Positions 19,109-47,175 of a stretch of DNA of 64,000 nucleotides are shown here, one piece after another. The stretch is taken from NCBI GenBank assembly GCA_000092065.1, contig CP000590.1. The stretch is one strand, 5' to 3'. This stretch comes from Ostreococcus lucimarinus. Taxonomy: Eukaryota. Within the stretch, counting starts at the first letter, position 1; each line of letters begins with the position of its first letter. Below the pieces are notes generated by a model. It did not search any database. It was not told where the DNA came from and saw only the letters and a list, made by a program, of their open reading frames with translations. The translations under genes and the position numbers were made by a program.

Positions 19109-20260
19109 ATGCATCGAACTTTCGCCGCACCGCGACGCGCGCGCGGCGCGCGACGCGCGCGCGCGATGACGCGCGAATCACCCGCGACGGCGTCGACGTC
19201 CGCGCGCGCGTTTCTGCGCGGCGGCGCGTTCGAGCGCGCGGTGGCGACGCGTTCTTGGCCGTTTTTGGGCCTCTTCGCCGCGCGCGACGACGACGACGCG
19301 CGCGACGACGACGACGCGCGCGGCGAGGACGACGCGCGCGACGACGACGACGTCGCGAAAGTCGAGACCGTCGCGCGCGCGTCGCTCGATGGGCGCGTCG
19401 CGTACGATAAAGCGGCGTTGCTGCGACTTCGGGACGCGGCGGCGTCGAGCGGGACGCCGCCGGGCGCGACGGAGGAAGACATGCGGGCGTACCCTTGGCG
19501 CGCGCGCGTGGATGTGGGTCAAGGCGCGAGCGAGGTCGAGAATGACGCGGAGGAAGACGCGGTGACGGCGGCGGCGACGGCGAGGGTGGTGATGGAGACG
19601 GAGGCGGTCGCGCGCGCGCGGTCGGCGTGGCGCGAGCGGGAGACGTTCGAGGCGGACGCGGAACAGGCGGCGGTGGCGTTGAGGCGGGTGTTGGCGCGCG
19701 AATCGGAAGGTGACGGTGATGCGGTGAGCGAGGGTTATCGGGTGACGTTTCGCGACGGCGCCGTGCGGGCGTTCGTGCGAAAGCTGACGCGCGAACGGTT
19801 CGGCGATTTGTCGGCGGCGGATTTGGATCTTCGCGAGACGTCGCGAGAAGGAGAGACAGCGGTTTTGTACGGCACGCGAAGGCTCGCGGAAGACGGCGCG
19901 TACGAAGTGAGCGTGGCGTTCGTACATCCGTGGGATGGTGAACTCGAGCACGTGGTTTCGTGGCTCTCAAAACCGGCGGACGATTCGGAAACCGTCGTCT
20001 CGCCCGTGGGTTGGCTTCGCGCGAACGCCAGTCTCGGCGCCAGTTTACCCCCGAACGCGAAACGTGCGTACGACGACATCGCCACTGGTCGTGGCGATGC
20101 GCATGTGAACGTCTCAGCCGCGCGATTGTTTGTCGCGCTCGACGTCTCGACGAGCGCGTGCGGCCCTTTGGTGATGGAGTGTTACGATTTAGAATCGCGC
20201 GCGGGCGTAGAGTACTTCCTCGGGGGTGCCGACGCGGCGGAGCACGACGAGGATTATTAG
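19109..20260 (+). CDS. hypothetical protein (C-terminal globular domain, no family assigned)
   Basis: The C-terminal 250 aa is non-repetitive (YRVTFRDGAVRAFVRKLTRERFGDLSAADL...VAFVHPWDGELEHVVSWLSKP...). The N-terminal part overlaps the low-complexity antisense of the BRO1 ORF. Contains a YDKAALLRL (YxxxxLphi-like) segment of unknown significance. Confidence 0.35.
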   Translation: MHRTFAAPRRARGARRARAMTRESPATASTSARAFLRGGAFERAVATRSWPFLGLFAARDDDDARDDDDARGEDDARDDDDVAKVETVARASLDGRVAYDKAALLRLRDAAASSGTPPGATEEDMRAYPWRARVDVGQGASEVENDAEEDAVTAAATARVVMETEAVARARSAWRERETFEADAEQAAVALRRVLARESEGDGDAVSEGYRVTFRDGAVRAFVRKLTRERFGDLSAADLDLRETSREGETAVLYGTRRLAEDGAYEVSVAFVHPWDGELEHVVSWLSKPADDSETVVSPVGWLRANASLGASLPPNAKRAYDDIATGRGDAHVNVSAARLFVALDVSTSACGPLVMECYDLESRAGVEYFLGGADAAEHDEDY

Positions 20261-33844: not shown

Positions 33845-36800
33845 ATGAGCGTTCACGATCGGTTCCCGCACTCGACCGCGGAGCTGTGCCGCGTAAACGC
33901 GGTGCAGTTTGGGGTGTTGTCGCCCGATGAGATCGTACGTGCATCGAACGCGCGCGCGCGCGAAGCGAAGGCGCGAAAGAGCGCCGGCGCGGGAGATCTT
34001 CGAGAGGGCGAGGCGGCGAGGGCGAACGCGCGACGCGGGCGACGAAGGCGAGCGAGCGCGCACTGACCGAACGTGAAACTTTCGCGCGATAGCGTAAAAT
34101 GTCCGTGTGCGCGATCGAGACGAGCGAGACGTACGAGAAGGGTAGACCCAAGCGAGGGGGTTTGTCCGATCCGCGCATGGGGACGATGGATCGCGGCGCG
34201 GTGTGCGAGACGGACGGGTGCGACAGCGTGCAGACGCCGGGTTACTTTGGGCATCTTGAGTTGGCGAAACCGGTGTACCATCATGGGTTCATCAACGTCG
34301 TGTTGAGAATTCTGAGATGCGTCGGATACTCGTCTTCGCAATTGTTGCTGCACAAGGACGAGGACCCAAAGTTTGCGCAGTTGATGCGAATCAAGAACCC
34401 GAAAAACCGATTGAAGAAACTCACCGACGCGTGTAAAACCAAGAGCGTGTGTCCGTACACCGGGACGGCGCAACCGCAGTATCGTTTGGAGGGAATGAAG
34501 ATCACCGCCGAGTTCAAGCACCGCGACGAGGAGCTGTTGCCGGAAGGTGGCGAACGCAAGGTGATCGTCACCGCGGAGCGCGCGTTACAGATCTTGAAGG
34601 CGATTTCTGACGAGGATTGCCGTGCGCTGGGTCTCGACCCCGAGCACGCGCGTCCGGATTGGTTCATCTTGCAAGTGATGCCCGTGCCGCCGCCGCCGGT
34701 TCGTCCGTCGGTGTCGTTCGACGCTTCCACGCGCTCGGAGGACGATTTGACGGTCAAGCTCATGGAAATCGTGAGAACGAATAAAAATTTAGAGAGACAA
34801 GAACAAAATGGAGCGCCGCAGCACGTCATTTTAGAATTTACAGAGCTGCTTCAGTATCACATCATGACCTTCATGGACAACACGGTGGCTGGCATGCCGC
34901 GAGCGCTCACGCGCAGCGGCCGAAGCATTAAATCCATTTCAGAGCGTTTGAAGGGCAAGGCGGGTAGAATTCGAGGCAACTTGATGGGTAAGCGCGTGGA
35001 TTTCTCTGCGCGTACCGTCATTACGCCCGATCCAAACTTGATGCTCGACGAGCTCGGAGTTCCGTGGTCCATCGCGTTGAACATGACGTATCCGGAAACC
35101 GTGACGCCGTACAACATCGATCGCCTTCAACGATTGGTCGAGAACGGCCCGCATCCACCTCCTGGTGAGACCGGTGCGCGTTACATCATTCGTGAGGATG
35201 GTCAGCGACTCGATCTTCGCTTCTTGAAGAAGTCGAGCGAGAAGCGTCTCGAGTACGGTTACAAAGTTGAACGTCACATGGTGAACGGAGACGTCGTCCT
35301 GTTCAATCGTCAACCTTCTTTGCACAAGATGTCCATCATGGGTCATCGCGTCCGAATCATGCCTTACTCGACGTTCAGATTGAACTTGTCTGTCACGCCG
35401 CCATACAACGCTGATTTTGATGGGGATGAAATGAACATGCACCTTCCGCAGTCTTACGAGACACGCGCGGAGGTGAAGGAGTTGATGATGGTACCGAAAA
35501 TGATCGTATCGCCCCAGGCCAACAAGCCCGTGATGGCTATCGTGCAAGACACCTTGTTGGGTTGCCGCTTGATCACGAAGCGCGACACCTTCATCACAAA
35601 GGACGTCTTCATGAACATCATCATGTGGTTGGAGGATTGGGACGGGAAGGTGCCGAAGCCGGCTATCCTCAAACCCCAACCTTTGTGGACTGGTAAACAA
35701 GTGTTTTCGATGATGTTACCGAAGGTGAACTTGCTTCGCACGAGTGCGTGGGCCAAGGACTCCGACGACATGGCTTTCAGCGTGGACGACACCGGTGTCC
35801 GAATTGAACAAGGCGAATTGCTCACCGGGACGCTGTGCAAGAAGACTATGGGTAGCGGCGGTGGCGGTTTGATCCACGTGACCTGGGAAGAGTGGGGTCC
35901 CATCGCCGCACGCGGGCTCATCTCTCAGACGCAGACGCTCGTCAACTACTGGGTGCTCCACCACGGTTTCACCGTCGGCATTGCGGATACCATTGCGGAC
36001 GACGAGACAATGTTCTCCATTAACAACACCATCACCAAGGCTAAAGCTGACGTGAAGGAAGTCATCAAACTCGCACAAAACAATGAACTCGAGTTGCAAC
36101 CGGGTATGACGATGCAACAATCGTTCGAACAGAAGGTGAACCAAATCTTGAACAAGGCGCGTGATAACGCTGGTAACTCGGCGCAAAACTCGCTTATGGA
36201 TACCAACAATGTCAAGATGATGGTGACGGCCGGTTCGAAGGGTTCGTTCTTGAACATTTCGCAGATGATTGCGTGTGTAGGACAACAAAACGTAGAAGGA
36301 AAACGTATTCCGTACGGTTTCAAAGGCAGAACATTGCCGCACTTTAGCAAGGATGATTTCGGTCCCGAGTCGCGTGGTTTCGTCGAGAACTCGTATTTGC
36401 GTGGTTTGACTCCTCAGGAGTTCTTTTTCCACGCCATGGGTGGCCGAGAAGGTTTGATCGATACTGCAGTTAAGACGTCTGAAACTGGTTACATCCAACG
36501 TCGTCTTGTCAAGGCTATGGAGGACGTGGTTGTCAAGTACGACGGCACTGTGCGTAACAGCGTCGGCGACGTCATCCAGTTCTTGTACGGCGAGGACGGC
36601 ATGGACGCGACCATGATTGAAAGCCAATCCATCGATACGTTGCGTTTCAGCGTGAAGGAGTTCGCGGCGAAGTTCCACATCGATCCAGATGTCCCGGGCT
36701 TTAACAATGGCTGGTTGAGCGAGGAGCAAGCGAGCGAACTCGCGCACACTGCAAAGGTGCGCGAGATTCTTGACGCAGAATGGGATCGACTTCAGCGCGA

Positions 36801-38943
36801 CCGAGTCGAACTGCGAACGATTTGTCCCACAGGGGATCCTCACGTGCACTTACCAGTGAACATGAAGCGTATCTTGTGGAATGCACAAAAGCAGTACGGC
36901 CTGTACCGACCGGATTCTGGCGAAGAAGAGGTCAAGGTGACGCACATCATCGAGAGCGTCGCTGAACTTTTGCCGAAGCTCATCGTGGTGCCTGGTACAG
37001 ATCCGTTATCCGTCGAAGCGCAAAGAAACGGTACGATGCTATTTTTCGCGCACGTGCGCGCCAATTTGGCAGCCAAGCGCGTGCTGAAAGAACACAAGCT
37101 CACGCGCGCCGGCTTCGACTGGGTCATCGGCGAAATCGAATCACGCTTCAAGATGGCACTTGCGCCGCCCGGTGATGGTATTGGCACGGTTGCCGCGCAA
37201 TCAATCGGTGAGCCGGCGACGCAGATGACGTTGAATACGTTCCACTTCGCCGGTGTGTCCGCCAAGAACGTGACCCTTGGTGTGCCGCGCTTGAAAGAAA
37301 TCATCAACATCGCGAAGAGCATCAAGACGCCAAGCTTGACGATCGCACTCAAGCCAGAGTTAGCTGGTGACAGAACGAGAGCGAAGGACTGTCAAGCGAG
37401 CCTAGAGTACACCACGCTCCACAGCGTTGCCGCAGTCACCGAGGTTCACTACGATCCAGATCCCACGGACACTGTCATCGAGGAAGACCGCGAATTCGTT
37501 CGCGCGTACTACGAAATGCCAGACGAAGACGTTGACCCGTCGCGCATGTCCCCATGGTTGTTGCGTATCGAGCTTAACCGTGAGATGATGGTAGACAAGA
37601 AGCTCCTCATGGCGGATGTTGCGGAGAGAATCAACGAAGATTTCGCCGGCGACTTGAGCTGCATCTTCAACGACGACAACTCTGAAAAGTTGGTGTTGAG
37701 AATTAGAATCATGAACCCCGAAGGCGTGAAATACGAGGACGCCTCGACCGAGGACGAAGTATTCTTGAAGCGTCTCGAGACGCAGATGTTGAGCAACCTT
37801 GCATTGCGCGGTATTCCAGACATTAAGAAGGTTTTCATCCGCGAAGCCAAACAAAACGCCATCAACAGCAAGACGGAGCTCTTCGAGAAAACCACCGAGT
37901 GGATGTTGGACACCGAAGGCGTCAACTTGCTCGAAGTCATGGCACATCCGGACGTCGACTTCACGAGAACTACATCTAACCACTTGATTGAAGTGATTCA
38001 AGTTCTTGGCATCGAAGCGGTGCGCAATACGCTCTTGCGTGAGTTGCGTGGTGTGATTGAGTTCGACGGTTCGTACGTGAACTACAGACATCTCGCGATT
38101 CTCGTCGAAGTGATGACATACCGTGGTCACTTGATGTCGATTACGCGACACGGCATCAACCGCGTGGAGACCGGTCCGCTCATGCGCTGCAGCTTCGAAG
38201 AAACTGTCGACATTCTCATGGAGGCGTCGGCGTTCTCTGAGCGAGACAATATGACTGGGCCGAGCGAGAATATCATGCTCGGGCAGTTCTGTCCGATCGG
38301 TACCGGGGAGTTCAAGCTGCACTTGAACGACGAGTTGTTACAAGATGCAGTTGAGTTAGAACTGTTCGGGGATGGATCTAGGACCCCTGGACACGGCGGA
38401 ATGATGACGCCGGGGCGCGATGGAACGCCCGGTTGGGGATCAAAGTCGCCGAGTTTCTTGTTGAGTCCAGGTGGACATCAAAGTCCGTTCGATACAAGCA
38501 TGGCATTCTCGCCGTACTCCGATGGCATGGCGTTCTCACCGGGAATGTCCCCTGGTGGTTTTGGAGGTTACTCCCCCACGAGTCCAGCGTATTCTCCGAC
38601 GAGCCCAGCATACTCCCCCACGAGTCCGGCGTACTCGCCCACGAGCCCAGCGTACTCGCCCACGAGTCCAGCGTACTCGCCCACGAGCCCGGCTTACTCG
38701 CCCACGAGTCCAGCGTACTCCCCCACGAGTCCAGCGTACTCCCCCACGAGTCCGGCGTACTCGCCCACGAGCCCAGCGTACTCGCCCACGAGTCCAGCGT
38801 ACTCGCCCACGAGCCCGGCTTACTCGCCCACGAGTCCAGCGTACTCCCCCACGAGTCCAGCGTACTCCCCCACGAGTCCGGCGTACTCGCCCACGAGCCC
38901 AGCGTACTCCCCGAAAGAGGAAGAAGAAAACGAAGAAGAATAG
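33845..38943 (+). CDS. RPB1: DNA-directed RNA polymerase II largest subunit RPB1, 2 exons: 33845..33934, 34093..38943; CTD of 16 perfect YSPTSPA heptads
   Basis: Exon 1 encodes ...VNAVQFGVLSPDEI. Exon 2 continues RKMSVCAIETSE..., which restores the conserved VQFGxLSPDEIRxMSV. All RPB1 regions A-H are recognisable (NADFDGDEMN metal-binding site and others). The C-terminus holds tandem YSPTSPA repeats ending YSPKEEEENEEE. Confidence 0.93.
33935..34092 (+). other. RPB1 intron (158 nt, phase 0)
   Basis: Donor GTACGTG, branch-like GCACTGACC 30 nt before the acceptor GATAG. Confidence 0.85.
38569..38904 (+). repeat. RPB1 CTD heptad array: 16 x 21-bp units encoding YSPTSPA, containing a perfect 126-bp (6-heptad) tandem duplication (38632..38757 = 38758..38883)
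   Basis: Unit-by-unit reading shows synonymous variation between neighbouring heptads. The 6-unit block is repeated identically, and a 7th identical unit starts a third copy. Confidence 0.9.
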
Positions 38944-39048: not shown

Positions 39049-40572
39049 TCACAGTTTTGACTGTGGGCGCGTCATTTCTTCAGGCTTTATCCATTCATCG
39101 AACTGTTCGTTCGTCAGTAAACCGAGCGCGATGCCAGCTTCGCGTAAAGTTAAACCTTCGGCGTGTGCTTTTTTCGAAATTTTTGCGGCGTTGTCGTACC
39201 CGATCTTCGGCAGCAAGCTGGTGACGAGCATTAAGCTGCTTCGCATGAGCGCGTCGATGCGCTCGATGTTTGGTTCGATACCAACGACGCAGTTTTGCGT
39301 GAAGCTGATGACCGAATCAGAAAGGAGCGCGATGGAGTTCAGGTTGTTGTGAGCGATCAGAGGCTTAGCTACGTTGAGCTCAAAGTGGGAGCTCGCGGAA
39401 CCGCCGATGGTGACCGCGAGATCGTTACCGATGACTTGCGCGCACACCTGCATCAGACTTTCGCACTGCGTCGGGTTCACCTTACCAGGCATGATACTGC
39501 TTCCGGGCTCGTTTTCAGGCAGCTGAAGTTCGCCGAGTCCGGCGCGAGGTCCAGAGCCGAGAAGACGAATATCGTTGGCAATTTTCAACAACGAAATCGC
39601 GATAGTCTTCAACAGACCGGACAGCGCGGACTGCGCGTCGTGTGCGGCGAGCGCCTCAAACTTATTTGGCGCGCTCACGAACGGCAAACCGGTTAATAGG
39701 GAGATTTCCGCCGCCATCGCCTCGCCGAAACCTGGTGGCGAGTTTAGCCCCGTGCCGACGGCGGTGCCGCCGATGGCGAGCTCGAGCAAGTGAATGAGCG
39801 CACCTTTGGCGCGCACGAGAGAATTCTTGCACTGTTGCTCGTACCCACTGAATTCTTGCGCGAGCGTGATCGGGACGGCGTCTTGAAGATGCGTTCTGCC
39901 GATTTTCACTATGCCTCCCCACGCGAGCACTTTCTGGTGCAACGCCTCCTGCAGCATTTTCAACGCCGGAATCAGCCGCTCTTGCACTTCGTGCGCGGTG
40001 GCGATGGACATAGCGGTCGGAAACGTATCGTTACTCGACTGCGATTTGTTGACGTGATCGTTCGGGTGAATCGGAGACTTGGTCCCGACGGCGCCGCCGA
40101 GCACGCGCGAATTCGCGTAATTCGAGATGACCTCGTTCAGATTCATGTTCGTCTGCGTCCCACTTCCCGTTTGCCACACGGCGAGCGGAAAATGATCATC
40201 CAACCGTCCCTCCACCACCTCCCGCGCCGCCTTTCGAATCGCATCCGCCAATCTCGGCTCCAGTCCCCCCGCCCGTTCGTTCACCGTCGCCGCCGCGTAC
40301 TTGACGATGGCCAAGCTTCGCACGATCGCCACCGGCATCTTCTCCCCCCCGATCCTAAAATTCTGCAGCGACCGCTGCGTCTGCGCCCCCCACAGCTTAT
40401 CCGCGGGCACGCGCACCTCTCCCATCGTGTCCGTCTCGACGCGCCACCCGCGCTCGCCCTCACCGCTCGCCGTCGTCGTCGGCGCGAGCGACGTCCCGTG
40501 CGCGACGATCCGCGTCTCGTCCCGCGCGTTCGACGCCCGCATCAGCTCCACCAACCGCTCCGCGAACGGCAT
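39049..40572 (-). CDS. FUM: fumarate hydratase class II (fumarase C), mitochondrial-type presequence
   Basis: [15 protein letters not shown] signature. Conserved along the whole length ([30 protein letters not shown] and others). Confidence 0.93.
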
Positions 40573-41217
40573 CGCCTCTCGCGCGTCGCGTCGACCCGGT
40601 CGCGAGGATTCGATTCAATCCGCGTAACGACCCGCGTCGCGTCGCGCGCGCCGACTCGATCGAATCCTCGCGCGCGCGTCGCGCGTCGCGCGCGTCGCGT
40701 CGCTCGCGCGCGAACGGCGCGTCGCGCCCGTTTTTTATTCGCCGTCCGCGGCGTTCGCGCGTCGACGCGTGCCGACGCCGCGTCGCGTCGCGTCGCGCGA
40801 CGCGTCGACGCGGCCGTTCGCGAATCGCGACGGTCGCGCGCGGCGCGCGAATCGACGTCGCCGCGCCCCGCGCGCGCGCGGCGCGACGCCCGCGACGCGC
40901 GCGACGGCGCGCGAAAATTTTTATCGCGCGTTTCGCGTCGACGCGCGCGCGCCGGGCGTCGCGACGGCGATGCGGCGGCGCATCGCGCGCGCATCGCGCG
41001 CGCATCGCGCGTCCGCGACGCGCGGCACTGCGCGCCTCGCGACGTCTCGCGCGTCGATCCGACCGACGCGCGCGCGGACGGACGAAGAGCTCGGCGACGC
41101 GCGCGGCGCGGACGCACGACGAGCGCGGCGCGCGTCATCGCGCGCGTCGCGCGCGCGCGCGGCGCGAGCGCGAGGGGCGCGCGCGACGGACGGCGACGCG
41201 CGGCGACGACGCGCGCG
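40573..41217. promoter_or_regulatory. CG-dinucleotide-rich simple-sequence divergent intergenic region between fumarase (-) and MYG1 (+) starts; presumed bidirectional promoter
   Basis: 645 bp made almost entirely of cgcgcg/gacgcg motifs. It lies between two head-to-head start codons. All long ORFs here are Arg-rich artefacts. Confidence 0.4.
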
Positions 41218-42231
41218 ATGACGAACGAGGCGAAGCGGACGAAGGCGCAGACGACGATCGCGACGCACGACGGCGCGTTTCACTGCGACGAGGCGCTCGG
41301 GTGTCACCTGCTGCGAAGGACGCGCGCGTTCGCGGGCGCGGCGATCGACCGCTCGCGAGACGGCGAGCGATGGGCCAAGGCGGACGTCGTCATCGACGTC
41401 GGCGCGGTGTACGACGCGGAGAAGAGGCTGTACGATCATCATCAGCGGGAGTTCGCGGAGACGTTCGGACGGGGGTTCGGGACGAAGCTGTCGAGCGCGG
41501 GGTTGGTGTACAAGCACTACGGGGAGGAAATCGTGCGCGAGGCGTTGACGCGAGCGAAGCGCGGCGAGGCGCCGGATGAGAAGACGGTGGAGAAGATTTA
41601 CGTGAAGATGTACGAAGAATTCATCGAGGGCGTGGACGCGATCGATAACGGGGTGAACATGTACGATACGGATGCGAAGGCAAAGTACAAGGACAACACC
41701 GGGTTGTCGGCGCGCGTCAAGCGATTGAATCCGGCGTGGGACGAGCCCAATTCGCCGGAAAAGCAAATGGAACAGTTCGAAAAGGCGGTGGCGTTGACCG
41801 GGGGTGAGTTCGACGACGTGCTCGAGTACTACGCGAGTAAGTGGCTTCCCGCGCGCTCGCACGTGGAGAGCGCGCTCGACAAGGCGAAGAGCGTGCACGA
41901 GAGCGGCGAAATTCTTTACCTCGAGACATTTTGTCCGTGGAAAGAGCACCTTTACGAGCTCGAAGCCGAACGTCAGATGACGACGTTGCCGAAGTTTGTG
42001 TTGTGGCAAGACCCCAAAGGTTTCCGCGTGAGCACGATCTCCCTCTCGCCCTCGAGTTTTGAGTTTCGCAAAGGCTTGCCTACGGCGTGGCGCGGTCTTC
42101 GCGACGATGACTTGAGCAAGGCGTCGGGGATTCCGGGATGCGTGTTCATCCACGCCGCTGGATTCATCGGTGGCAACGCCACCTACGATGGCGCGCTCGC
42201 CATGGCCGTAGCGGGCTTACAGATGGATTAG
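41218..42231 (+). CDS. MYG1: UPF0160 protein MYG1 (metal-dependent protein hydrolase family)
   Basis: IATHDGAFHCDEALGCHLL N-terminal motif and overall length match the MYG1 family. The ORF track merges it into an 813-aa ORF whose upstream part is antisense to fumarase. Confidence 0.85.
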   Translation: MTNEAKRTKAQTTIATHDGAFHCDEALGCHLLRRTRAFAGAAIDRSRDGERWAKADVVIDVGAVYDAEKRLYDHHQREFAETFGRGFGTKLSSAGLVYKHYGEEIVREALTRAKRGEAPDEKTVEKIYVKMYEEFIEGVDAIDNGVNMYDTDAKAKYKDNTGLSARVKRLNPAWDEPNSPEKQMEQFEKAVALTGGEFDDVLEYYASKWLPARSHVESALDKAKSVHESGEILYLETFCPWKEHLYELEAERQMTTLPKFVLWQDPKGFRVSTISLSPSSFEFRKGLPTAWRGLRDDDLSKASGIPGCVFIHAAGFIGGNATYDGALAMAVAGLQMD

Positions 42232-42281
42232 AAGACAGACGATTTTAGAGACGCGCTTGTTGTCGTACGAACCCTCACAAC

Positions 42282-42788
42282 ATGCCTCCCAACATCCCGG
42301 GCGCGCGCCGCGGCGTGCGTCCGAGCAAAGGTTCGCGCAAAGCGAACGCCCGCGCGCACAAATTCTCCAAGCGCGCGTCCAAGCGCGGTGCGAGCGACGA
42401 CGGTCGTCCCCGTCCCCGCGGCGGCTTTGGTCTCCTGGCGCTTGTCGGCGCCGGTGTCGCCGCGCTCGTCGGTTTCGTGCTCCATCAAGCCGCGGAGTAC
42501 GAGCGCGAGAACGAGCGCGTGCGCGCGAGGCTGCGGTCGAAGCCTCGGGTGACGAGCGAGCACGCGGCGTGCCGCATGGAGTGCAGGTTCATCACGGCGG
42601 AGGAGGTCGAGCGCACGCTCGTGGACGGGAAAGTGGATGCGAGGCACAGCACGCCCAACGCGCGACCGTGTCCGAAAATAGCTCTAAACATGGGTCGCGT
42701 GCGAGCGGTTTGGGCGGATTGCGCGGACAGCACGAGGCTGGTGACGGCGATCGACGCGGAGACGAACCATCCGTGCGGGCCGTGCTGA
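42282..42788 (+). CDS. hypothetical small membrane protein with DUF4258-like segment
   Basis: Basic N-terminus, the TM helix FGLLALVGAGVAALVGFVL, then EHAACRMECRFITAEEVERTLVDGKV, which resembles the hAxxRMxERgIt.eev motif. Confidence 0.4.
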   Translation: MPPNIPGARRGVRPSKGSRKANARAHKFSKRASKRGASDDGRPRPRGGFGLLALVGAGVAALVGFVLHQAAEYERENERVRARLRSKPRVTSEHAACRMECRFITAEEVERTLVDGKVDARHSTPNARPCPKIALNMGRVRAVWADCADSTRLVTAIDAETNHPCGPC

Positions 42789-42882
42789 GACGCGGGACGA
42801 CGTAGTACATTTCAGAGGAGGATAGCGCGAGAGGAGAGCGATTGTAACATTAAGTAGCGCGAGGTAGAGAGATATCAAATCA

Positions 42883-43470
42883 CTATGCGGCGCGTCGCGT
42901 TTTTCCCGCACGAACGGTGGACTTTTTGACATCGCCGTCGCCGCGACTCTTCGTATTCTTCGCGCGCTTCGTCTTGGTCTTCCTCTTCTTCGGACGCTTA
43001 CGTCCGTTGGCGACCCAACGCCGAAATGCGCGCTGAATCGTGGTCGCCGAACGCACGCGCCGGAACTCTAAGAGACGCGCCTGCGCACGCGCTTCGCGCT
43101 TTGCTGCCGCCGCCCTCTCGGCGCGCTCGCGAATCGCTTCGACTTCGCTCGCCAACTGCGCGTTGGCGTTCTGAATCTCGCGCAAGACGTCGCGCGCGCC
43201 ATCACACTTCACGTCCAATGCCGACATACGCGCGCGCGACGTCGCGCAGTCTCGCTCGGATGCCGCGCCTACTGCGCGCACGGCGGCTCGGTGCCGCTCG
43301 AGCGTCGTCGCCGAGCGCGTCTCCAGCGCCTTTAACTCCCGCCTCAAGTCATCAATCTCAGCCTCTCGCGCGCGCTTCGCAAACGCACGCTCGTGCGACA
43401 ACGACTTTACGCGAACAGATATCTCGATCCTCGCCGTTCGAGCGGCGCGCGCGCGTCTACTCGCCCACAT
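42883..43470 (-). CDS. hypothetical coiled-coil protein with IQ-like motif
   Basis: Heptad-pattern coiled coil, then TIQRAFRRWV (IQ-like) and a basic tail. Confidence 0.35.
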   Translation of the reverse strand: MWASRRARAARTARIEISVRVKSLSHERAFAKRAREAEIDDLRRELKALETRSATTLERHRAAVRAVGAASERDCATSRARMSALDVKCDGARDVLREIQNANAQLASEVEAIRERAERAAAAKREARAQARLLEFRRVRSATTIQRAFRRWVANGRKRPKKRKTKTKRAKNTKSRGDGDVKKSTVRAGKTRRAA

Positions 43471-43705
43471 TCGCTCGACCGAAAATAGAAGCCCGGTAAG
43501 ATTAGAATACCAGGCGTCTCGCGCAGCGGACGCCTCGTCGCGCGCGCGCGCCGTTCAAGGTTAAAATTCGCGAGATCAAAATCGCCACGCGCCGATTCGT
43601 CGCGCGGCGTGAGCGCGCGCGACCGCTTGAGGCCCAGCCGCGTCTTGAACTGAGGCTCGTTCGCGCCTGTAGCATACGAAACGCCACTACGACGCGTGAC
43701 GCGTC

Positions 43706-44221
43706 ATGCGCGCGCGACGCCGCTCCGCGACGCTCGCGTGCGTCGCGTCATCACTCGTGTCCGTCGTTCGCGCGCACTCCGCCGCCGAGTGCGCGGCGCT
43801 CGGCTTCGTGTCGTCCGAGTGCTCTGTGGATGCCTGCGATAATTTACGTTCGAAAACAGCGTCCGTCGCGCTCTACGACGAGTGCCGCGCGTGTTGCGCC
43901 GCCTCGAACGACGCCGCGGCGCCCGTGACATACGCTCGAGCGCTCGTTCGCGTGTGCTCGTGAAAACTGGGACGCTTTCCGGAGTTGAAGAAGTTTCAAA
44001 CGGAGAGCTTGCCCGCGTTGCGCCAGACCCGCGACGTGCGGTTCGATTTAGTTCAAGGAATGTCACCGACGCTCACGATGTACGAAGACGCGGCGAGCGA
44101 TAACAACGGCATCGACGTCGACGTCGGTAGCTGGAGTTCGGACGTCATCGTGGAGTATCTCAAATCAAAGTTGACGCCGAGCCCGGACGCGTCGTCGCGG
44201 TCCTCGCGAGACGAGCTTTAA
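43706..44221 (+). CDS. SEP15: selenoprotein Sep15/SELENOF-like with in-frame TGA (selenocysteine) at 43961..43963 and C-terminal RDEL
   Basis: Signal peptide and Cys-rich N-terminal domain. ...RVCS-TGA-KLGRFPELKKFQTESLPALRQTRDVRFDLVQGMSPTLTMYED... matches the Sep15 redox motif C-x-U-KLGRFP. The ORF track splits the gene into 43706..43963 and 43985..44221, which share a frame. Confidence 0.8.
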
Positions 44222-44339
44222 GACGCCGCATCGCGCGAAACATAGACACACGGACATCGCGCCACGACGATCGGTCGTCGCGCGCCGTTAGATTAGCCCG
44301 CGTACGAGTCTTGGGCTTTGACGTTGACGAATTCGACGA

Positions 44340-44410
44340 CGACCGCGCGGTGACTCGCGCTCGGCGAAACGCTCTCGATTCCGAGCCGCCGAGCGCGACG
44401 ATACGCGGTC
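44340..44410 (+). promoter_or_regulatory. candidate SECIS element region in Sep15 3' UTR (unverified)
   Basis: GTGAC...AAA...GA arrangement (ggTGACtcgcgctcggcgAAAcgctctcgattccGAgcc) about 130 nt after the stop. The non-canonical GUGA quartet and the fold are not verified. Confidence 0.2.
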
Positions 44411-44633
44411 GTGCGTCGCGTCGCGTCCTCGTTTTCGACCGTCTCGCGCCTAGCGCCGCACCGTGTAATCACGGCATCACATTCGCTCGGCGAACGCGCT
44501 TCGTCGCGCGTTTTCGCGACGCCCTCGTCTCGCGTCTCGCCGCGACGTTTGCCTCGCGGCGCGAGAGCTCGATCGATCTTCACACTCGCGCTCGCGCCGC
44601 GTCCGCACGCGTCCGATCGTCCGCGCGCGCGCG

Positions 44634-46145
44634 ATGACGCGTGCGAAACATCATCCCGCGCGGGCGCGCGGGCGTCGTTCCCCGCTCGCGCGCCTCGTCG
44701 CGCTGATTTCCTTCGCGTTCGTCGTCCGCGCGCGCCTCATCGTGGCGTCGTCGGATGACTACTATAAACTGCTCGGCGTCGATCGCAACGCGGACGAACG
44801 CACGCTGAAGAAGAACTATCGCATTCAGGCGCTGAAGCATCACCCCGATAAGGGCGGATCGCCCGAACACTTCGCGAAGATCTCCGAAGCGTACGAGGCG
44901 CTGACGGATCCGGAGAAGCGACGCGTGTACGACCAGTACGGCGCGGAGGGACTGCGGAACCAGCAAGCCGGCGGGCATCCGGGCGGCGGAGGCGGATTCG
45001 GTGGAGGTGGGTTCGGACATCCGGGAATGCGGTTCGAGTTTAATCAACGCGGCGGCGGGGGAGGTCCGTTCGGCGGGGGCGACCCGTTCGGGGACATTTT
45101 CGGCGACATGTTCGGACGCGGAGGCGGAGGCGGACGCGGAGGGCGAAGACATCCGCATCAGCAGCAGCGTCAGCAGCAACAGCGACCGAAGGAAAATTTA
45201 TTCGATAAAAAGTCACCGGTGACGAGCTTGAGGCAAGGACGGTTTCCGGGGACGGATGCGAAGAATATTTGGTTCATTTCGTTTTACGCCCCGTGGTGCG
45301 GGCACTGTCAGCAGATGAAATCGCAGTTTGAGGAACTCGCGAAGGCGCTCAATGGGTTCGTTCGCGTCGGGGCGGTGAATTGCGAGAAGCAAAAAGGTCT
45401 CTGCGCGATGGAGGGCGTTGATTCGTACCCGACGCTTAAGCTGAAGAAAGCCGGCGTGAGCACGACGTACGATAGCGGCGGACACGGATTTCAACAAATG
45501 TACGACTGGGTGATGAATCAGCTTCCCGTGAGTTTTGCGAACTTGCGAAAGACGGTGCAGTTGGAGAAATTTGTCGCCACGGATTGCACGAAGTGGTCGT
45601 CGAGCGGGAGCGCGTGCGTCATCTTTTTGAACGACAAGCACGAGACGCCGGCTTGGTTTAAAGTCACCGCGTACGCGTTCAGGGACAGGATGCACATGGC
45701 GGAGAGTAGGAGCAACAATCTCGAAATGGGTTTGCATTTCGACGTCGTGAAGCAGCCCGTGCTCATGGTACTTTGCGACGGTGACATGGACAAGACGGTT
45801 GCATACGGTGGCAAGCTCGATCACGACATGAAGAGCGCCGAGGTGGAGAAGTGGCTCGAGTCGTACGCGAAGAGCTACGCGACGGGTTGCGCTCGCGTGA
45901 AAGCGGTGCCGAAACAAGGCCTCAAACTCGACCCTTCGAAGAATTACAGCAAGATGAAAGTGAGCGCGATCAAGGCGCTCATGCAAGTGCACTCGATTCC
46001 GTGCGTCTCATGCTACGAAAAGAGTGATTTCGTCAACGCGATCAACGCGTACATTGAAGAAAAGTTTCCTAAACCGAAATCGAAGAAGAAACGCGGATTC
46101 GGTGCGGAGTACTTGCACTCGTCGTTCGCGCACGACGATTTTTAG
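44634..46145 (+). CDS. DnaJ (J-domain) plus thioredoxin-domain ER protein (ERdj5/PDI-like)
   Basis: Signal peptide. J domain DYYKLLGVDRNADERTLKKNYRIQALKHHPDKGG...EAYEALTDPEKRRVYDQYG. Gly-rich linker. Thioredoxin domain WFISFYAPWCGHCQQMKSQF. Confidence 0.85.
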   Translation: MTRAKHHPARARGRRSPLARLVALISFAFVVRARLIVASSDDYYKLLGVDRNADERTLKKNYRIQALKHHPDKGGSPEHFAKISEAYEALTDPEKRRVYDQYGAEGLRNQQAGGHPGGGGGFGGGGFGHPGMRFEFNQRGGGGGPFGGGDPFGDIFGDMFGRGGGGGRGGRRHPHQQQRQQQQRPKENLFDKKSPVTSLRQGRFPGTDAKNIWFISFYAPWCGHCQQMKSQFEELAKALNGFVRVGAVNCEKQKGLCAMEGVDSYPTLKLKKAGVSTTYDSGGHGFQQMYDWVMNQLPVSFANLRKTVQLEKFVATDCTKWSSSGSACVIFLNDKHETPAWFKVTAYAFRDRMHMAESRSNNLEMGLHFDVVKQPVLMVLCDGDMDKTVAYGGKLDHDMKSAEVEKWLESYAKSYATGCARVKAVPKQGLKLDPSKNYSKMKVSAIKALMQVHSIPCVSCYEKSDFVNAINAYIEEKFPKPKSKKKRGFGAEYLHSSFAHDDF

Positions 46146-46194: not shown

Positions 46195-47175
46195 TTAATC
46201 GCCACTTCCCCAGGCGTCGCCGAAGGAGGCGGCTCCGGGCGCGCCGCGATTGTCGAACCCGCCCGGCCCGCCCGGAGGACCGAACTGCTGCGGCGGACGT
46301 GGGGGCACGGGATATCCCATAGCCTTGAGTAAAATGCGTGACATCTCTCCGTACAAATGCCCGCCGCGGTCTAGGAGCTGCAACAGCGACATGATGAAAA
46401 AATGCAACGCCTGCGTGTTTTCGTCGACGAGAAAGGAAATCTTCCCAAACAAGTGCACGACGGACGACAAAGAGTGCATGAGCGCCTGCCAACCCGTCAA
46501 CGGCGGCGCGCCGGGCGGTGGACCACCGGGCCCATACGGTCCCATGGGTGGCTGCCCGTACATCCCGCCGCCGTACATCCCGCCGCCGTGCCCGCCGTAC
46601 ATCCCGCCGCCGTACCCGCCGTACATCCCGCCGCCGTACCCGCCGCCGTACCCGCCGCCGTACATCCCGCCGCCGTACCCGCCGCCGTACATCCCGCCGC
46701 CGTACATCCCGCCGCCGTACCCTCCGTACCCGCCGCCGTACATCGAATTTCCGTACGCGCCTCCCCGATACCCTCCGTACATCGAATTTCCGCCGTACGG
46801 CGCGCCTCCGTACGTCGTCCCCGCGTACCCGCTCGGCGACGCCCCGTGCGACGTCCCTCGATTCGTCGTCTCCCACGCTCGACTCTCCGGCGTCGCCGTC
46901 GTTCCCGTCGGATTATTCACCGTCGCCACGGGCGCTATCGCGCGAACGTCGTCGTCGTCGTCGTCGTCAGTCTCTCCGCGTTCGCCTTCGCCTTCGCCTT
47001 CGCCTTCGCGTCGCGTCGCCCGTTCGCTCGTTCGCGCACCGCTCGGCGTCTGTCCCGCCCCCGGCTTATCCCACGGTTTCACCGCGCTTCCGTCGGCCAC
47101 CGGCGTGGACTTCACCGCCGTCTCGCCCGCGCCCGCCGCCGCGCGCCACGGTTTCGGCGGCGGCGGCGTCGCCAT
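46195..47175 (-). CDS. PEX13: peroxin PEX13-like (Gly/Tyr/Met-rich repeat region plus conserved Peroxin-13 N-type domain; no SH3, as in plants)
   Basis: GGGMYGGGYGG repeats, then SVVHLFGKISFLVDENTQALHFFIMSLLQLLDRGGHL (compare human PEX13 SVVHTVGSIAMMLDSTYMALHNSFRAVLDVANHFSRL). The plus-strand Pro/Tyr-rich ORF is its antisense. Confidence 0.7.
   Translation of the reverse strand: MATPPPPKPWRAAAGAGETAVKSTPVADGSAVKPWDKPGAGQTPSGARTSERATRREGEGEGEGERGETDDDDDDDVRAIAPVATVNNPTGTTATPESRAWETTNRGTSHGASPSGYAGTTYGGAPYGGNSMYGGYRGGAYGNSMYGGGYGGYGGGMYGGGMYGGGYGGGMYGGGYGGGYGGGMYGGYGGGMYGGHGGGMYGGGMYGQPPMGPYGPGGPPPGAPPLTGWQALMHSLSSVVHLFGKISFLVDENTQALHFFIMSLLQLLDRGGHLYGEMSRILLKAMGYPVPPRPPQQFGPPGGPGGFDNRGAPGAASFGDAWGSGD
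46540..46800. repeat. imperfect tandem DNA repeats (ccgccgccgtacatcccg-type) encoding the Gly/Tyr/Met repeats of PEX13
   Basis: Repeats of 18-30 bp with variants, visible by direct reading. Confidence 0.8.

What the first reader, a model, noticed from the sequence alone, without database searches (positions are those of the whole stretch)
43706..44410. Selenocysteine-encoding Sep15/SELENOF gene hidden as two ORFs split by an in-frame TGA
ORFs 43706..43963 and 43985..44221 share a frame and are separated only by TGA at 43961-43963. Read through, the product is signal peptide, Cys-rich domain, then RVCS-U-KLGRFPELKKF..., which is the Sep15/SelM-type redox motif (CxU followed by KLGRFP). It ends in RDEL-like ER retention. 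A stop-codon ORF caller will always miss or truncate this gene. A SECIS element must lie in the 3' UTR (44222-44633); one weak candidate, GTGAC...AAA...GA, sits near 44350.
Basis: partly seen in the sequence, partly recalled or inferred. Interest (0 to 1): 0.75.

Follow-up and report, generated by a model that had tools for sequence, protein, structure and literature searches.

The report
Known Ostreococcus selenoprotein F (Sep15) gene
This is a real selenocysteine-encoding Sep15/SELENOF gene with its SECIS RNA hairpin, but it is the same Ostreococcus lucimarinus chromosome 10 gene that was published as a selenoprotein in 2007, so it is correct but not new.

Summary
Window 43706-44221 (+) is one reading frame with a single in-frame TGA at 43961-43963. 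Read through, it gives a 171-residue protein with four parts: a signal-peptide-like N-terminus, a six-Cys domain, a C-S-U redox motif followed by KLGRFP, and a C-terminal RDEL.

Pfam Sep15_SelM scores 44 bits (cut-off 26) and the match spans the TGA. The Sec codon aligns with the Sec of human SELENOF and with the Cys of the solved Drosophila Sep15 structure.

It is a type II stem-loop at 44335-44417 with a GUGA/GA core, a 12-bp helix II, unpaired AAA and a mini-stem. It is the only hit of a generic SECIS-pattern scan in the whole window. Four orthologous loci from other Ostreococcus-like genomes keep it, with compensatory changes, and they also keep the TGA and the downstream frame. Rfam SECIS_1 does not detect it.

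The gene is already published. Lobanov et al. 2007 (PMC2375036) list O. lucimarinus Sep15 at Chr_10 [235706, 236176] with this sequence. Since 235706 - 43706 = 192000 = 3 x 64000, the window is chr10:192001-256000. The same paper describes the G-before-quartet and long mini-stem as typical of Ostreococcus SECIS elements.

Verdict: interpretation supported, already known, low interest.

The parts
43706..44221 (+). SELENOF/Sep15 coding sequence, 171 codons plus TAA stop (44219-44221), no intron, one in-frame TGA
   Evidence: Identical, apart from machine-reading errors, to the O. lucimarinus Sep15 printed in the supplement of PMC2375036. Its published start Chr_10:235706 equals window 43706 + 192000.
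43706..43774 (+). Signal-peptide-like N-terminus (residues 1-23: basic RARRR, hydrophobic ATLACVASSLVSVV, then V-R-A before the likely cleavage site)
   Evidence: Read directly from the sequence. No signal-peptide predictor was available, so the cleavage site is inferred. The same n/h/c layout is present in all five orthologs.
43790..43897 (+). Cys-rich N-terminal domain: Cys29, 39, 44, 60, 63, 64 (C-x4-GF ... C-x4-C ... C-x2-C-C). This is the counterpart of the UGGT-binding domain of animal Sep15.
   Evidence: All six Cys are conserved in five orthologs. The domain aligns with the Cys-rich domain of human SELENOF (and the supplement alignment). UGGT binding itself was not tested.
43955..43963 (+). 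Redox motif Cys84-Ser85-Sec86 (TGC TCG TGA); the Sec codon is TGA 43961-43963
   Evidence: TGA occupies the same alignment column in all five orthologs as C-[SKE]-TGA-AAA-CT. It aligns with U of human SELENOF and with Cys of Drosophila Sep15 2a4h.
43940..44173 (+). Sep15/SelM thioredoxin-like redox domain (residues 79-156)
   Evidence: Pfam PF08806, 44 bits, cut-off 26, E = 2.3e-11, profile positions 2-74 of 75. PDB 2a4h, E = 1.8e-7.
44207..44218 (+). C-terminal RDEL, an ER-retrieval-type tetrapeptide
   Evidence: Orthologs end in RDEL, KDEL, RSEL and RDEL. Function is inferred from the established KDEL-receptor pathway.
44335..44417 (+). SECIS element, type II. Helix I is 44335-44347 with 44404-44417. 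The core is GUGA 44350-44353 opposite GA 44400-44401. Helix II is 44355-44366 with 44387-44398 (12 bp). Unpaired AAA is at 44367-44369. The mini-stem is 44371-44374 with 44383-44386.
   Evidence: MFE -54.4 kcal/mol, z = -5.0. It is the only SECIS-pattern hit in the window. The same architecture occurs at the same place in four orthologous loci. 4 of 12 helix II pairs show compensatory changes and 89.8% of cells are paired, against 14-48% when partners are slid. It is the top hit (34.9 bits) of a covariance model built only from three other species. G before the quartet and a long mini-stem are the published hallmarks of Ostreococcus SECIS elements. Rfam SECIS_1 does not match it.
44464..44468 (+). 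TGTAA, a possible green-algal polyadenylation signal about 47 nt after the SECIS
   Evidence: Sequence. It is conserved only in the closest ortholog L014, at 1978. There is no transcript evidence, so this is a weak inference.

Best explanation
The region is the intronless nuclear gene for selenoprotein F (Sep15/SELENOF) of the picoalga Ostreococcus lucimarinus, chromosome 10, about 235.7-236.4 kb. The mRNA carries one UGA at codon 86. A type II SECIS stem-loop 128 nt downstream of the TAA stop recruits the eukaryotic Sec-insertion machinery (SBP2, eEFSec, tRNA-Sec), so that this UGA is read as selenocysteine instead of stop. The product is a secreted-pathway protein. A signal peptide takes it into the ER, a six-Cys N-terminal domain corresponds to the UGGT-binding domain of animal Sep15, and a thioredoxin-like domain carries a C-S-U redox centre. 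RDEL at the C-terminus would retrieve it to the ER. It most likely acts as a thiol-disulfide oxidoreductase in ER glycoprotein quality control. Shown here: the reading frame, domain homology, conservation of the TGA and downstream frame, the SECIS structure and its conservation, and identity with the published gene. Inferred: actual Sec insertion, ER location, UGGT binding and enzymatic role.
For: Single frame with one TGA. Pfam Sep15_SelM above its cut-off across the TGA. The Sec position aligns with the Cys of solved Drosophila Sep15 and with U of human SELENOF, 31% identity over 147 aa including the Cys-rich domain. Five orthologs (window, L014, L001, L008, L011) all keep TGA in the same column, keep the frame downstream through indels that are multiples of three, and end in [KR][DS]EL at a TAA or TAG. 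Substitution patterns upstream and downstream of the TGA are alike. The SECIS evidence is: a stable fold, the unique pattern hit in 64 kb, the same architecture in the orthologs, compensatory changes in helix II, and the top hit of an independent covariance model. TGA ends 9 of 30 long ORFs in the window, so it is an ordinary stop elsewhere. Lobanov et al. 2007 list this very sequence as O. lucimarinus Sep15 at Chr_10 [235706, 236176]. They state that Ostreococcus SECIS elements have a G before the quartet and a long mini-stem, and they report 75Se labelling of O. tauri selenoproteins. Jiang et al. 2020 again list CxU-type SELENOF in algae.
Against: Rfam's eukaryotic SECIS model gives no match even at E <= 10 on a 101-nt slice. 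The core has GUGA rather than the usual AUGA, although this is the published Ostreococcus norm. My covariance model's E-values are inflated in this CGCG-rich DNA: an unrelated hairpin scores 27.9 bits against 34.9 for the SECIS. Covariation rests on only five sequences, two of them nearly identical, and only helix II could be aligned reliably. No transcript, 75Se or mass-spectrometry evidence specific to this protein was available here. The signal peptide was judged by eye.
Confidence: 0.95

Rival explanations
1. The TGA is a genuine stop. The locus is either a pseudogene with a premature stop or two unrelated short ORFs, and the downstream frame is not translated.
For: Every automatic gene call in the protein collections stops at the TGA. 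Rfam finds no SECIS.
Against: The TGA is conserved at the same column in five diverged orthologs. The downstream 85 codons stay in frame through indels, keep Sep15 homology and a [KR][DS]EL end, and evolve like the upstream half. The Pfam domain and the PDB alignment run straight across the TGA. A conserved SECIS-shaped hairpin follows.
Confidence: 0.02
2. TGA is decoded as a standard amino acid (Cys or Trp) by general stop-codon read-through or a variant genetic code, without selenocysteine.
For: None specific. Cys-containing Sep15 homologs exist in insects (2a4h).
Against: TGA terminates 9 of 30 long ORFs in the same window. A SECIS-type element lies in the 3' UTR and is conserved. The organism has a documented selenoproteome of 29 genes.
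Confidence: 0.02
3. The gene is a SelM (SELENOM) rather than a Sep15 (SELENOF) family member.
For: The Pfam family is shared by both. A C-terminal ER-retention-type signal is a SelM trait in mammals (own knowledge).
Against: The motif is CxU, not CxxU. The six-Cys N-terminal domain that aligns with human SELENOF is present. The PDB search hits Sep15 only, with no other Sep15/SelM-family chain at E <= 1. O. lucimarinus has a separate SelM on Chr_4.
Confidence: 0.01

Closest known systems
Ostreococcus lucimarinus Sep15 (Lobanov et al. 2007, Genome Biol 8:R198, Additional data file 2: Chr_10 [235706, 236176])
   Same: It is the same gene. The printed protein matches the window's read-through product, apart from a few characters that look like PDF machine-reading errors. 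The published start coordinate minus the window coordinate is exactly 192000 = 3 x 64000.
   Different: Nothing substantive. The published range ends 45 nt before the stop codon, although the printed alignment runs to ...DEL.
Human/mouse SELENOF (Sep15)
   Same: Signal peptide, six-Cys N-terminal domain, CxU followed by KLGRFP, a thioredoxin-like domain, and a SECIS in the 3' UTR. Identity is 31% over 147 residues.
   Different: The algal protein ends in RDEL (KDEL or RSEL in relatives), whereas mammalian SELENOF has no retrieval signal and is held in the ER through UGGT (own knowledge). The algal SECIS has G instead of A before the quartet, plus a mini-stem. The second to third Cys spacing is C-x4-C rather than C-x2-C.
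Drosophila Sep15 (PDB 2a4h)
   Same: Same redox domain; E = 1.8e-7 over residues 70-158.
   Different: The fly protein has Cys (CTC) where the alga has Sec (CSU), and so needs no SECIS.
Ostreococcus-type SECIS elements (Lobanov et al. 2007, Figure 1)
   Same: An unpaired G directly before the non-Watson-Crick quartet and a long apical mini-stem (type II); both are present here.
   Different: None for the window. The O. tauri-like ortholog L008 has CAGC in place of the AAA motif.

Membership tests
SELENOF / Sep15 | Sep15/SelM thioredoxin-like redox domain | tested here: met
   Pfam PF08806, 44 bits against a cut-off of 26, residues 79-156. PDB 2a4h Sep15, E = 1.8e-7.
SELENOF / Sep15 | CxU redox motif with U encoded by in-frame TGA (SelM has CxxU) | tested here: met
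   C84-S85-TGA. It aligns with CGU of human SELENOF and CTC of fly Sep15, and is conserved as C-[SKE]-TGA in five orthologs.
SELENOF / Sep15 | N-terminal Cys-rich (UGGT-binding) domain | tested here: met
   Six Cys are conserved in five orthologs and align with the human domain (supplement alignment). Binding to UGGT itself cannot be tested with these tools.
SELENOF / Sep15 | N-terminal signal peptide / ER targeting | tested here: inconclusive
   The n/h/c regions and a V-R-A site are visible in the sequence and conserved in layout, but no predictor was available.
SELENOF / Sep15 | SECIS element in the 3' UTR | tested here: met
   Stem-loop 44335-44417 with a GUGA/GA core, 12-bp helix II, AAA and a mini-stem. 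It is conserved with compensatory changes. The Rfam SECIS_1 model is negative.
SELENOF / Sep15 | Selenocysteine actually incorporated | not testable with these tools
   Needs 75Se labelling or mass spectrometry. The literature reports 75Se labelling of the O. tauri proteome only.
Eukaryotic SECIS, type II | Non-Watson-Crick quartet (N-UGA on the 5' side, GA on the 3' side) between helix I and helix II | tested here: met
   GUGA 44350-44353 opposite GA 44400-44401, flanked by helix I (13 bp with one bulge) and helix II. The motif is invariant in five orthologs.
Eukaryotic SECIS, type II | Helix II of about 9-14 bp, followed by an unpaired AA(R) motif and an extra mini-stem | tested here: met
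   12 bp, then AAA 44367-44369, then a 4-bp mini-stem. Present in L014, L001 and L011. In L008 the AAA is replaced by CAGC.
Eukaryotic SECIS, type II | Match to the curated Rfam covariance model SECIS_1 | tested here: not met
   No SECIS family among the matches at E <= 10, on 1.2 kb or on 101 nt. My reading, not tested, is that the model is insensitive to Ostreococcus-type elements (G before the quartet, long GC-rich stems).
SELENOM / SelM | CxxU motif and no Cys-rich N-terminal domain | tested here: not met
   The motif is CxU and the Cys-rich domain is present.

The most novel reading that the evidence does not exclude
In Ostreococcus, SELENOF carries its own [KR][DS]EL retrieval signal. 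It also sits in a conserved head-to-tail pair with a gene for an ER-type DnaJ + thioredoxin (WCGHC) + ARMET_C protein. The two could form a dedicated selenium-dependent disulfide-reduction and quality-control module, analogous to ERdj5, that does not depend on UGGT. The gene pairing itself was already noted as a 'SELENOF-PDI_a cluster' in Mamiellales (PMC7539508); only the functional coupling would be new.
Probability: 0.15. Interest if true: 0.35.

Novelty: already known. Interest (0 to 1): 0.1.

Why it matters
As a discovery it matters little. This exact gene, its Sec codon and the Ostreococcus SECIS type were published in 2007 and revisited in 2020. It does work as a positive control for the scan. 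A reader working from raw sequence alone correctly recognised a recoded UGA, the protein family and the position of the SECIS. The case also documents two practical blind spots. Stop-codon ORF callers split the gene in every metagenome data set examined, and Rfam's SECIS_1 model misses this Ostreococcus-type SECIS.

Tried and rejected
1. Rfam cmscan on 43600-44800 and again on 44325-44425 with E <= 10 gave no SECIS family. The only matches were weak, chance-level ones to miRNA and sRNA hairpin models.

2. The word-indexed protein search with the read-through protein (U replaced by C) returned a single hit, the N-terminal fragment of an ortholog truncated at its TGA. The exhaustive representative search with the C-terminal half returned only six hits, five of them short Ostreococcus-like C-terminal fragments. 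Gene callers split the gene, so full-length relatives are not in those collections.

4. MAFFT could not align helix I or the mini-stem across species because their lengths differ. Alignment A2 was unusable, so covariation was counted for helix II only.

5. The covariance model from three orthologs does rank the window's element first. Its E-values are not trustworthy in this CGCG-rich DNA, where about 20 unrelated hairpins score E < 0.1.

6. I looked for a second selenoprotein gene in the window, since Jiang et al. describe a SELENOF-PDI_a cluster. The neighbouring thioredoxin-domain gene has WCGHC with Cys in all loci. The published O. lucimarinus PDI selenoproteins lie on chromosomes 1, 12 and 13. 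The SECIS scanner finds no second element.

7. There is no tRNA, and so no tRNA-Sec, in the window.

8. The O. lucimarinus genome paper, requested as PMC1863510 (an id and attribution given from memory), is not held. I could not check whether the deposited annotation marks the Sec codon.

Full report
**Observation**

The region holds one reading frame of 171 sense codons. It is interrupted only by TGA at 43961-43963 and closed by TAA at 44219-44221. The apparent start of the second ORF at 43985 (TTG) is an artefact of ORF listing; the frame is open from 43964.

The product has four parts:
- a basic and hydrophobic N-terminus, MRARRRSATLACVASSLVSVVRA
- six cysteines in the pattern C-x4-GF...C-x4-C...C-x2-C-C
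- the motif RVC-S-[TGA]-KLGRFPELKKF
- the C-terminus SRDEL

**What the protein is**

With the TGA written as Cys, Pfam Sep15_SelM (PF08806) scores 44 bits against a curated cut-off of 26. The match covers residues 79-156, so it runs across the TGA.

The only credible solved relative is Drosophila Sep15 (2a4h, E = 1.8e-7). Its CTC motif aligns with C-S-U.

BLASTP against human SELENOF gives 31% identity over 147 residues (E = 7e-21 for the single comparison). I took the human sequence from the supplement of PMC2375036 and repaired its machine-reading errors from memory. The alignment covers both the Cys-rich domain and the CxU-KLGRFP motif. The CxU motif and the Cys-rich domain together make this Sep15/SELENOF rather than SelM.

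**The SECIS**

Its parts are:
- helix I: 44335-44347 paired with 44404-44417
- internal loop: GUGA (44350-44353) opposite GA (44400-44401)
- helix II: a perfect 12 bp, 44355-44366 paired with 44387-44398
- unpaired AAA: 44367-44369
- a short mini-stem

The minimum free energy is -54.4 kcal/mol, with z = -5.0 against dinucleotide shuffles.

I wrote a generic scanner with these requirements: RTGA, GA, at least 10 of 12 helix II pairs, AA 10-16 nt after the core, and at least 5 bp of helix I. It finds this site and no other on either strand of the 64 kb window. It found 0.13 sites per window in simulated sequence.

Rfam's SECIS_1 model does not report the element, even at E <= 10 on a 101-nt slice. 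This is the main negative result.

**Orthologs**

The truncated N-terminal and C-terminal ORFs led to four further loci from marine metagenomes and sequencing runs:
- L014, about 90% identical
- L001
- L008, whose C-terminal half equals the published O. tauri Sep15
- L011

All four have a single TGA in the same alignment column, in the context TG[CT]-NNN-TGA-AAA-CT. All keep the frame downstream through indels that are multiples of three. Their C-termini are RDEL, KDEL, RSEL and RDEL, and all stop at TAA or TAG. Substitution patterns are similar upstream and downstream of the TGA.

Each locus has a GUGA...GA stem-loop with the same architecture 32-137 nt after its stop codon. On the five-sequence alignment, helix II is paired in 89.8% of cells. 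When the partners are slid the figure is 14-48%. Four of the 12 pairs show changes on both sides.

A covariance model built only from L001, L008 and L011 ranks the window's element first, at 34.9 bits. The next hit scores 27.9 bits and lacks the UGA/GA core. The E-values are unreliable because the window is CGCG-rich.

TGA ends 9 of 30 long ORFs in the window, so it is an ordinary stop codon in this genome.

**Comparison with what is known**

Lobanov et al. 2007 (PMC2375036) found 29 selenoprotein genes in Ostreococcus lucimarinus, including Sep15. They state that all but one of its SECIS elements have a G directly before the quartet. [quoted passage not shown]

Their Additional data file 2 gives the O. 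lucimarinus Sep15 locus as Chr_10 [235706, 236176]. It prints a protein that equals the window's read-through product, apart from a few characters that look like PDF-reading errors. The offset 235706 - 43706 is exactly 192000 = 3 x 64000. The window is therefore O. lucimarinus chromosome 10, 192001-256000, and the finding is that published gene.

Jiang et al. 2020 (PMC7539508) again describe CxU-type SELENOF in algae, and a SELENOF-PDI_a gene cluster with conserved synteny in Mamiellales. In the window, the gene immediately downstream (44634-46145) encodes DnaJ + thioredoxin (WCGHC) + ARMET_C. It is the same neighbour in all the orthologous loci. It is probably the 'PDI_a' partner, in its Cys form. 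That identification is my inference.

**Mechanism**

Established knowledge of eukaryotic Sec insertion gives the likely mechanism. The SECIS in the 3' UTR binds SBP2, which brings eEFSec carrying Sec-tRNA to the ribosome at UGA-86. The full-length protein enters the ER and acts as a thiol-disulfide oxidoreductase through its C-S-U centre.

Shown here are the gene structure, family membership, the conserved recoding signals and the identity with the published gene. Inferred are Sec insertion for this particular protein, ER residence through RDEL, any UGGT interaction, and the enzymatic role.

**Verdict**

The finding is already known, so interest is low. Its residual value is as a control for the scan, and as a record that both stop-codon ORF callers and Rfam SECIS_1 miss this Ostreococcus selenoprotein gene.

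Noticed in passing
window 44634-46145 (+): The gene immediately downstream of SELENOF encodes a 503-aa protein with DnaJ, a Gly-rich linker, thioredoxin (WCGHC) and ARMET_C domains. The head-to-tail pairing with SELENOF is kept in L001, L008, L014 and L011. It probably corresponds to the 'SELENOF-PDI_a' cluster reported for Mamiellales (PMC7539508). The active site is Cys, not Sec, in L001, L008 and L014; L011 ends before that part of the gene.
   Followed up: partly
L008 1728-1778 (O. tauri-like ortholog): The orthologous SECIS keeps the GUGA/GA core, helix II and a 6-bp mini-stem. It has CAGC where the other four species have the unpaired AAA motif. This is a non-AA apical motif at the conserved position.
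   Followed up: partly
window 43706-44221 and orthologs L014, L001, L008, L011: All five SELENOF orthologs end in an ER-retrieval-type tetrapeptide (RDEL, RDEL, KDEL, RSEL, RDEL) and terminate at TAA or TAG, never TGA. To my knowledge mammalian SELENOF lacks such a signal.
   Followed up: partly
window 44464-44468: TGTAA, a possible green-algal poly(A) signal, lies about 47 nt after the SECIS. It is conserved only in the closest ortholog (L014, 1978) and absent from the other three intergenic regions.
   Followed up: partly
window 38569-38909: A tandem array of a 21-bp unit, 16.2 copies with 88% matches. It lies at the 3' end of the 1614-aa ORF 34099-38943 (+) and so would encode a 7-residue peptide repeat. 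GC content drops to 52-57% around 34-40 kb.
   Followed up: no
window 46195-47175 (-), repeats at 46556-46792: A 326-aa ORF with a long Gly/Tyr-rich low-complexity region (GGMYGGGYGG...) and an N-terminal PPKPW motif. It has no Pfam match. A YG-rich region plus KPW motif recalls peroxin PEX13, but that is from memory only and was not tested.
   Followed up: no
window 39049-43470: The upstream gene order is fumarase class II (39049-40572, -), MYG1 exonuclease (to 42231, +), a DUF4258 protein (42282-42788, +), then an Arg/Ala-rich coiled-coil-like ORF (42883-43470, -) with no Pfam hit. Fumarase, MYG1 and DUF4258 have the same order in L001, and a 195-196-aa minus-strand gene occupies the matching slot in L008 and L014.
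   Followed up: partly
window 19324-19388 (-): A GC-rich hairpin scores 27.9 bits with the SECIS-derived covariance model but lacks the UGA/GA core. It illustrates how many stable CGCG hairpins this genome contains. It is not a SECIS.
   Followed up: partly
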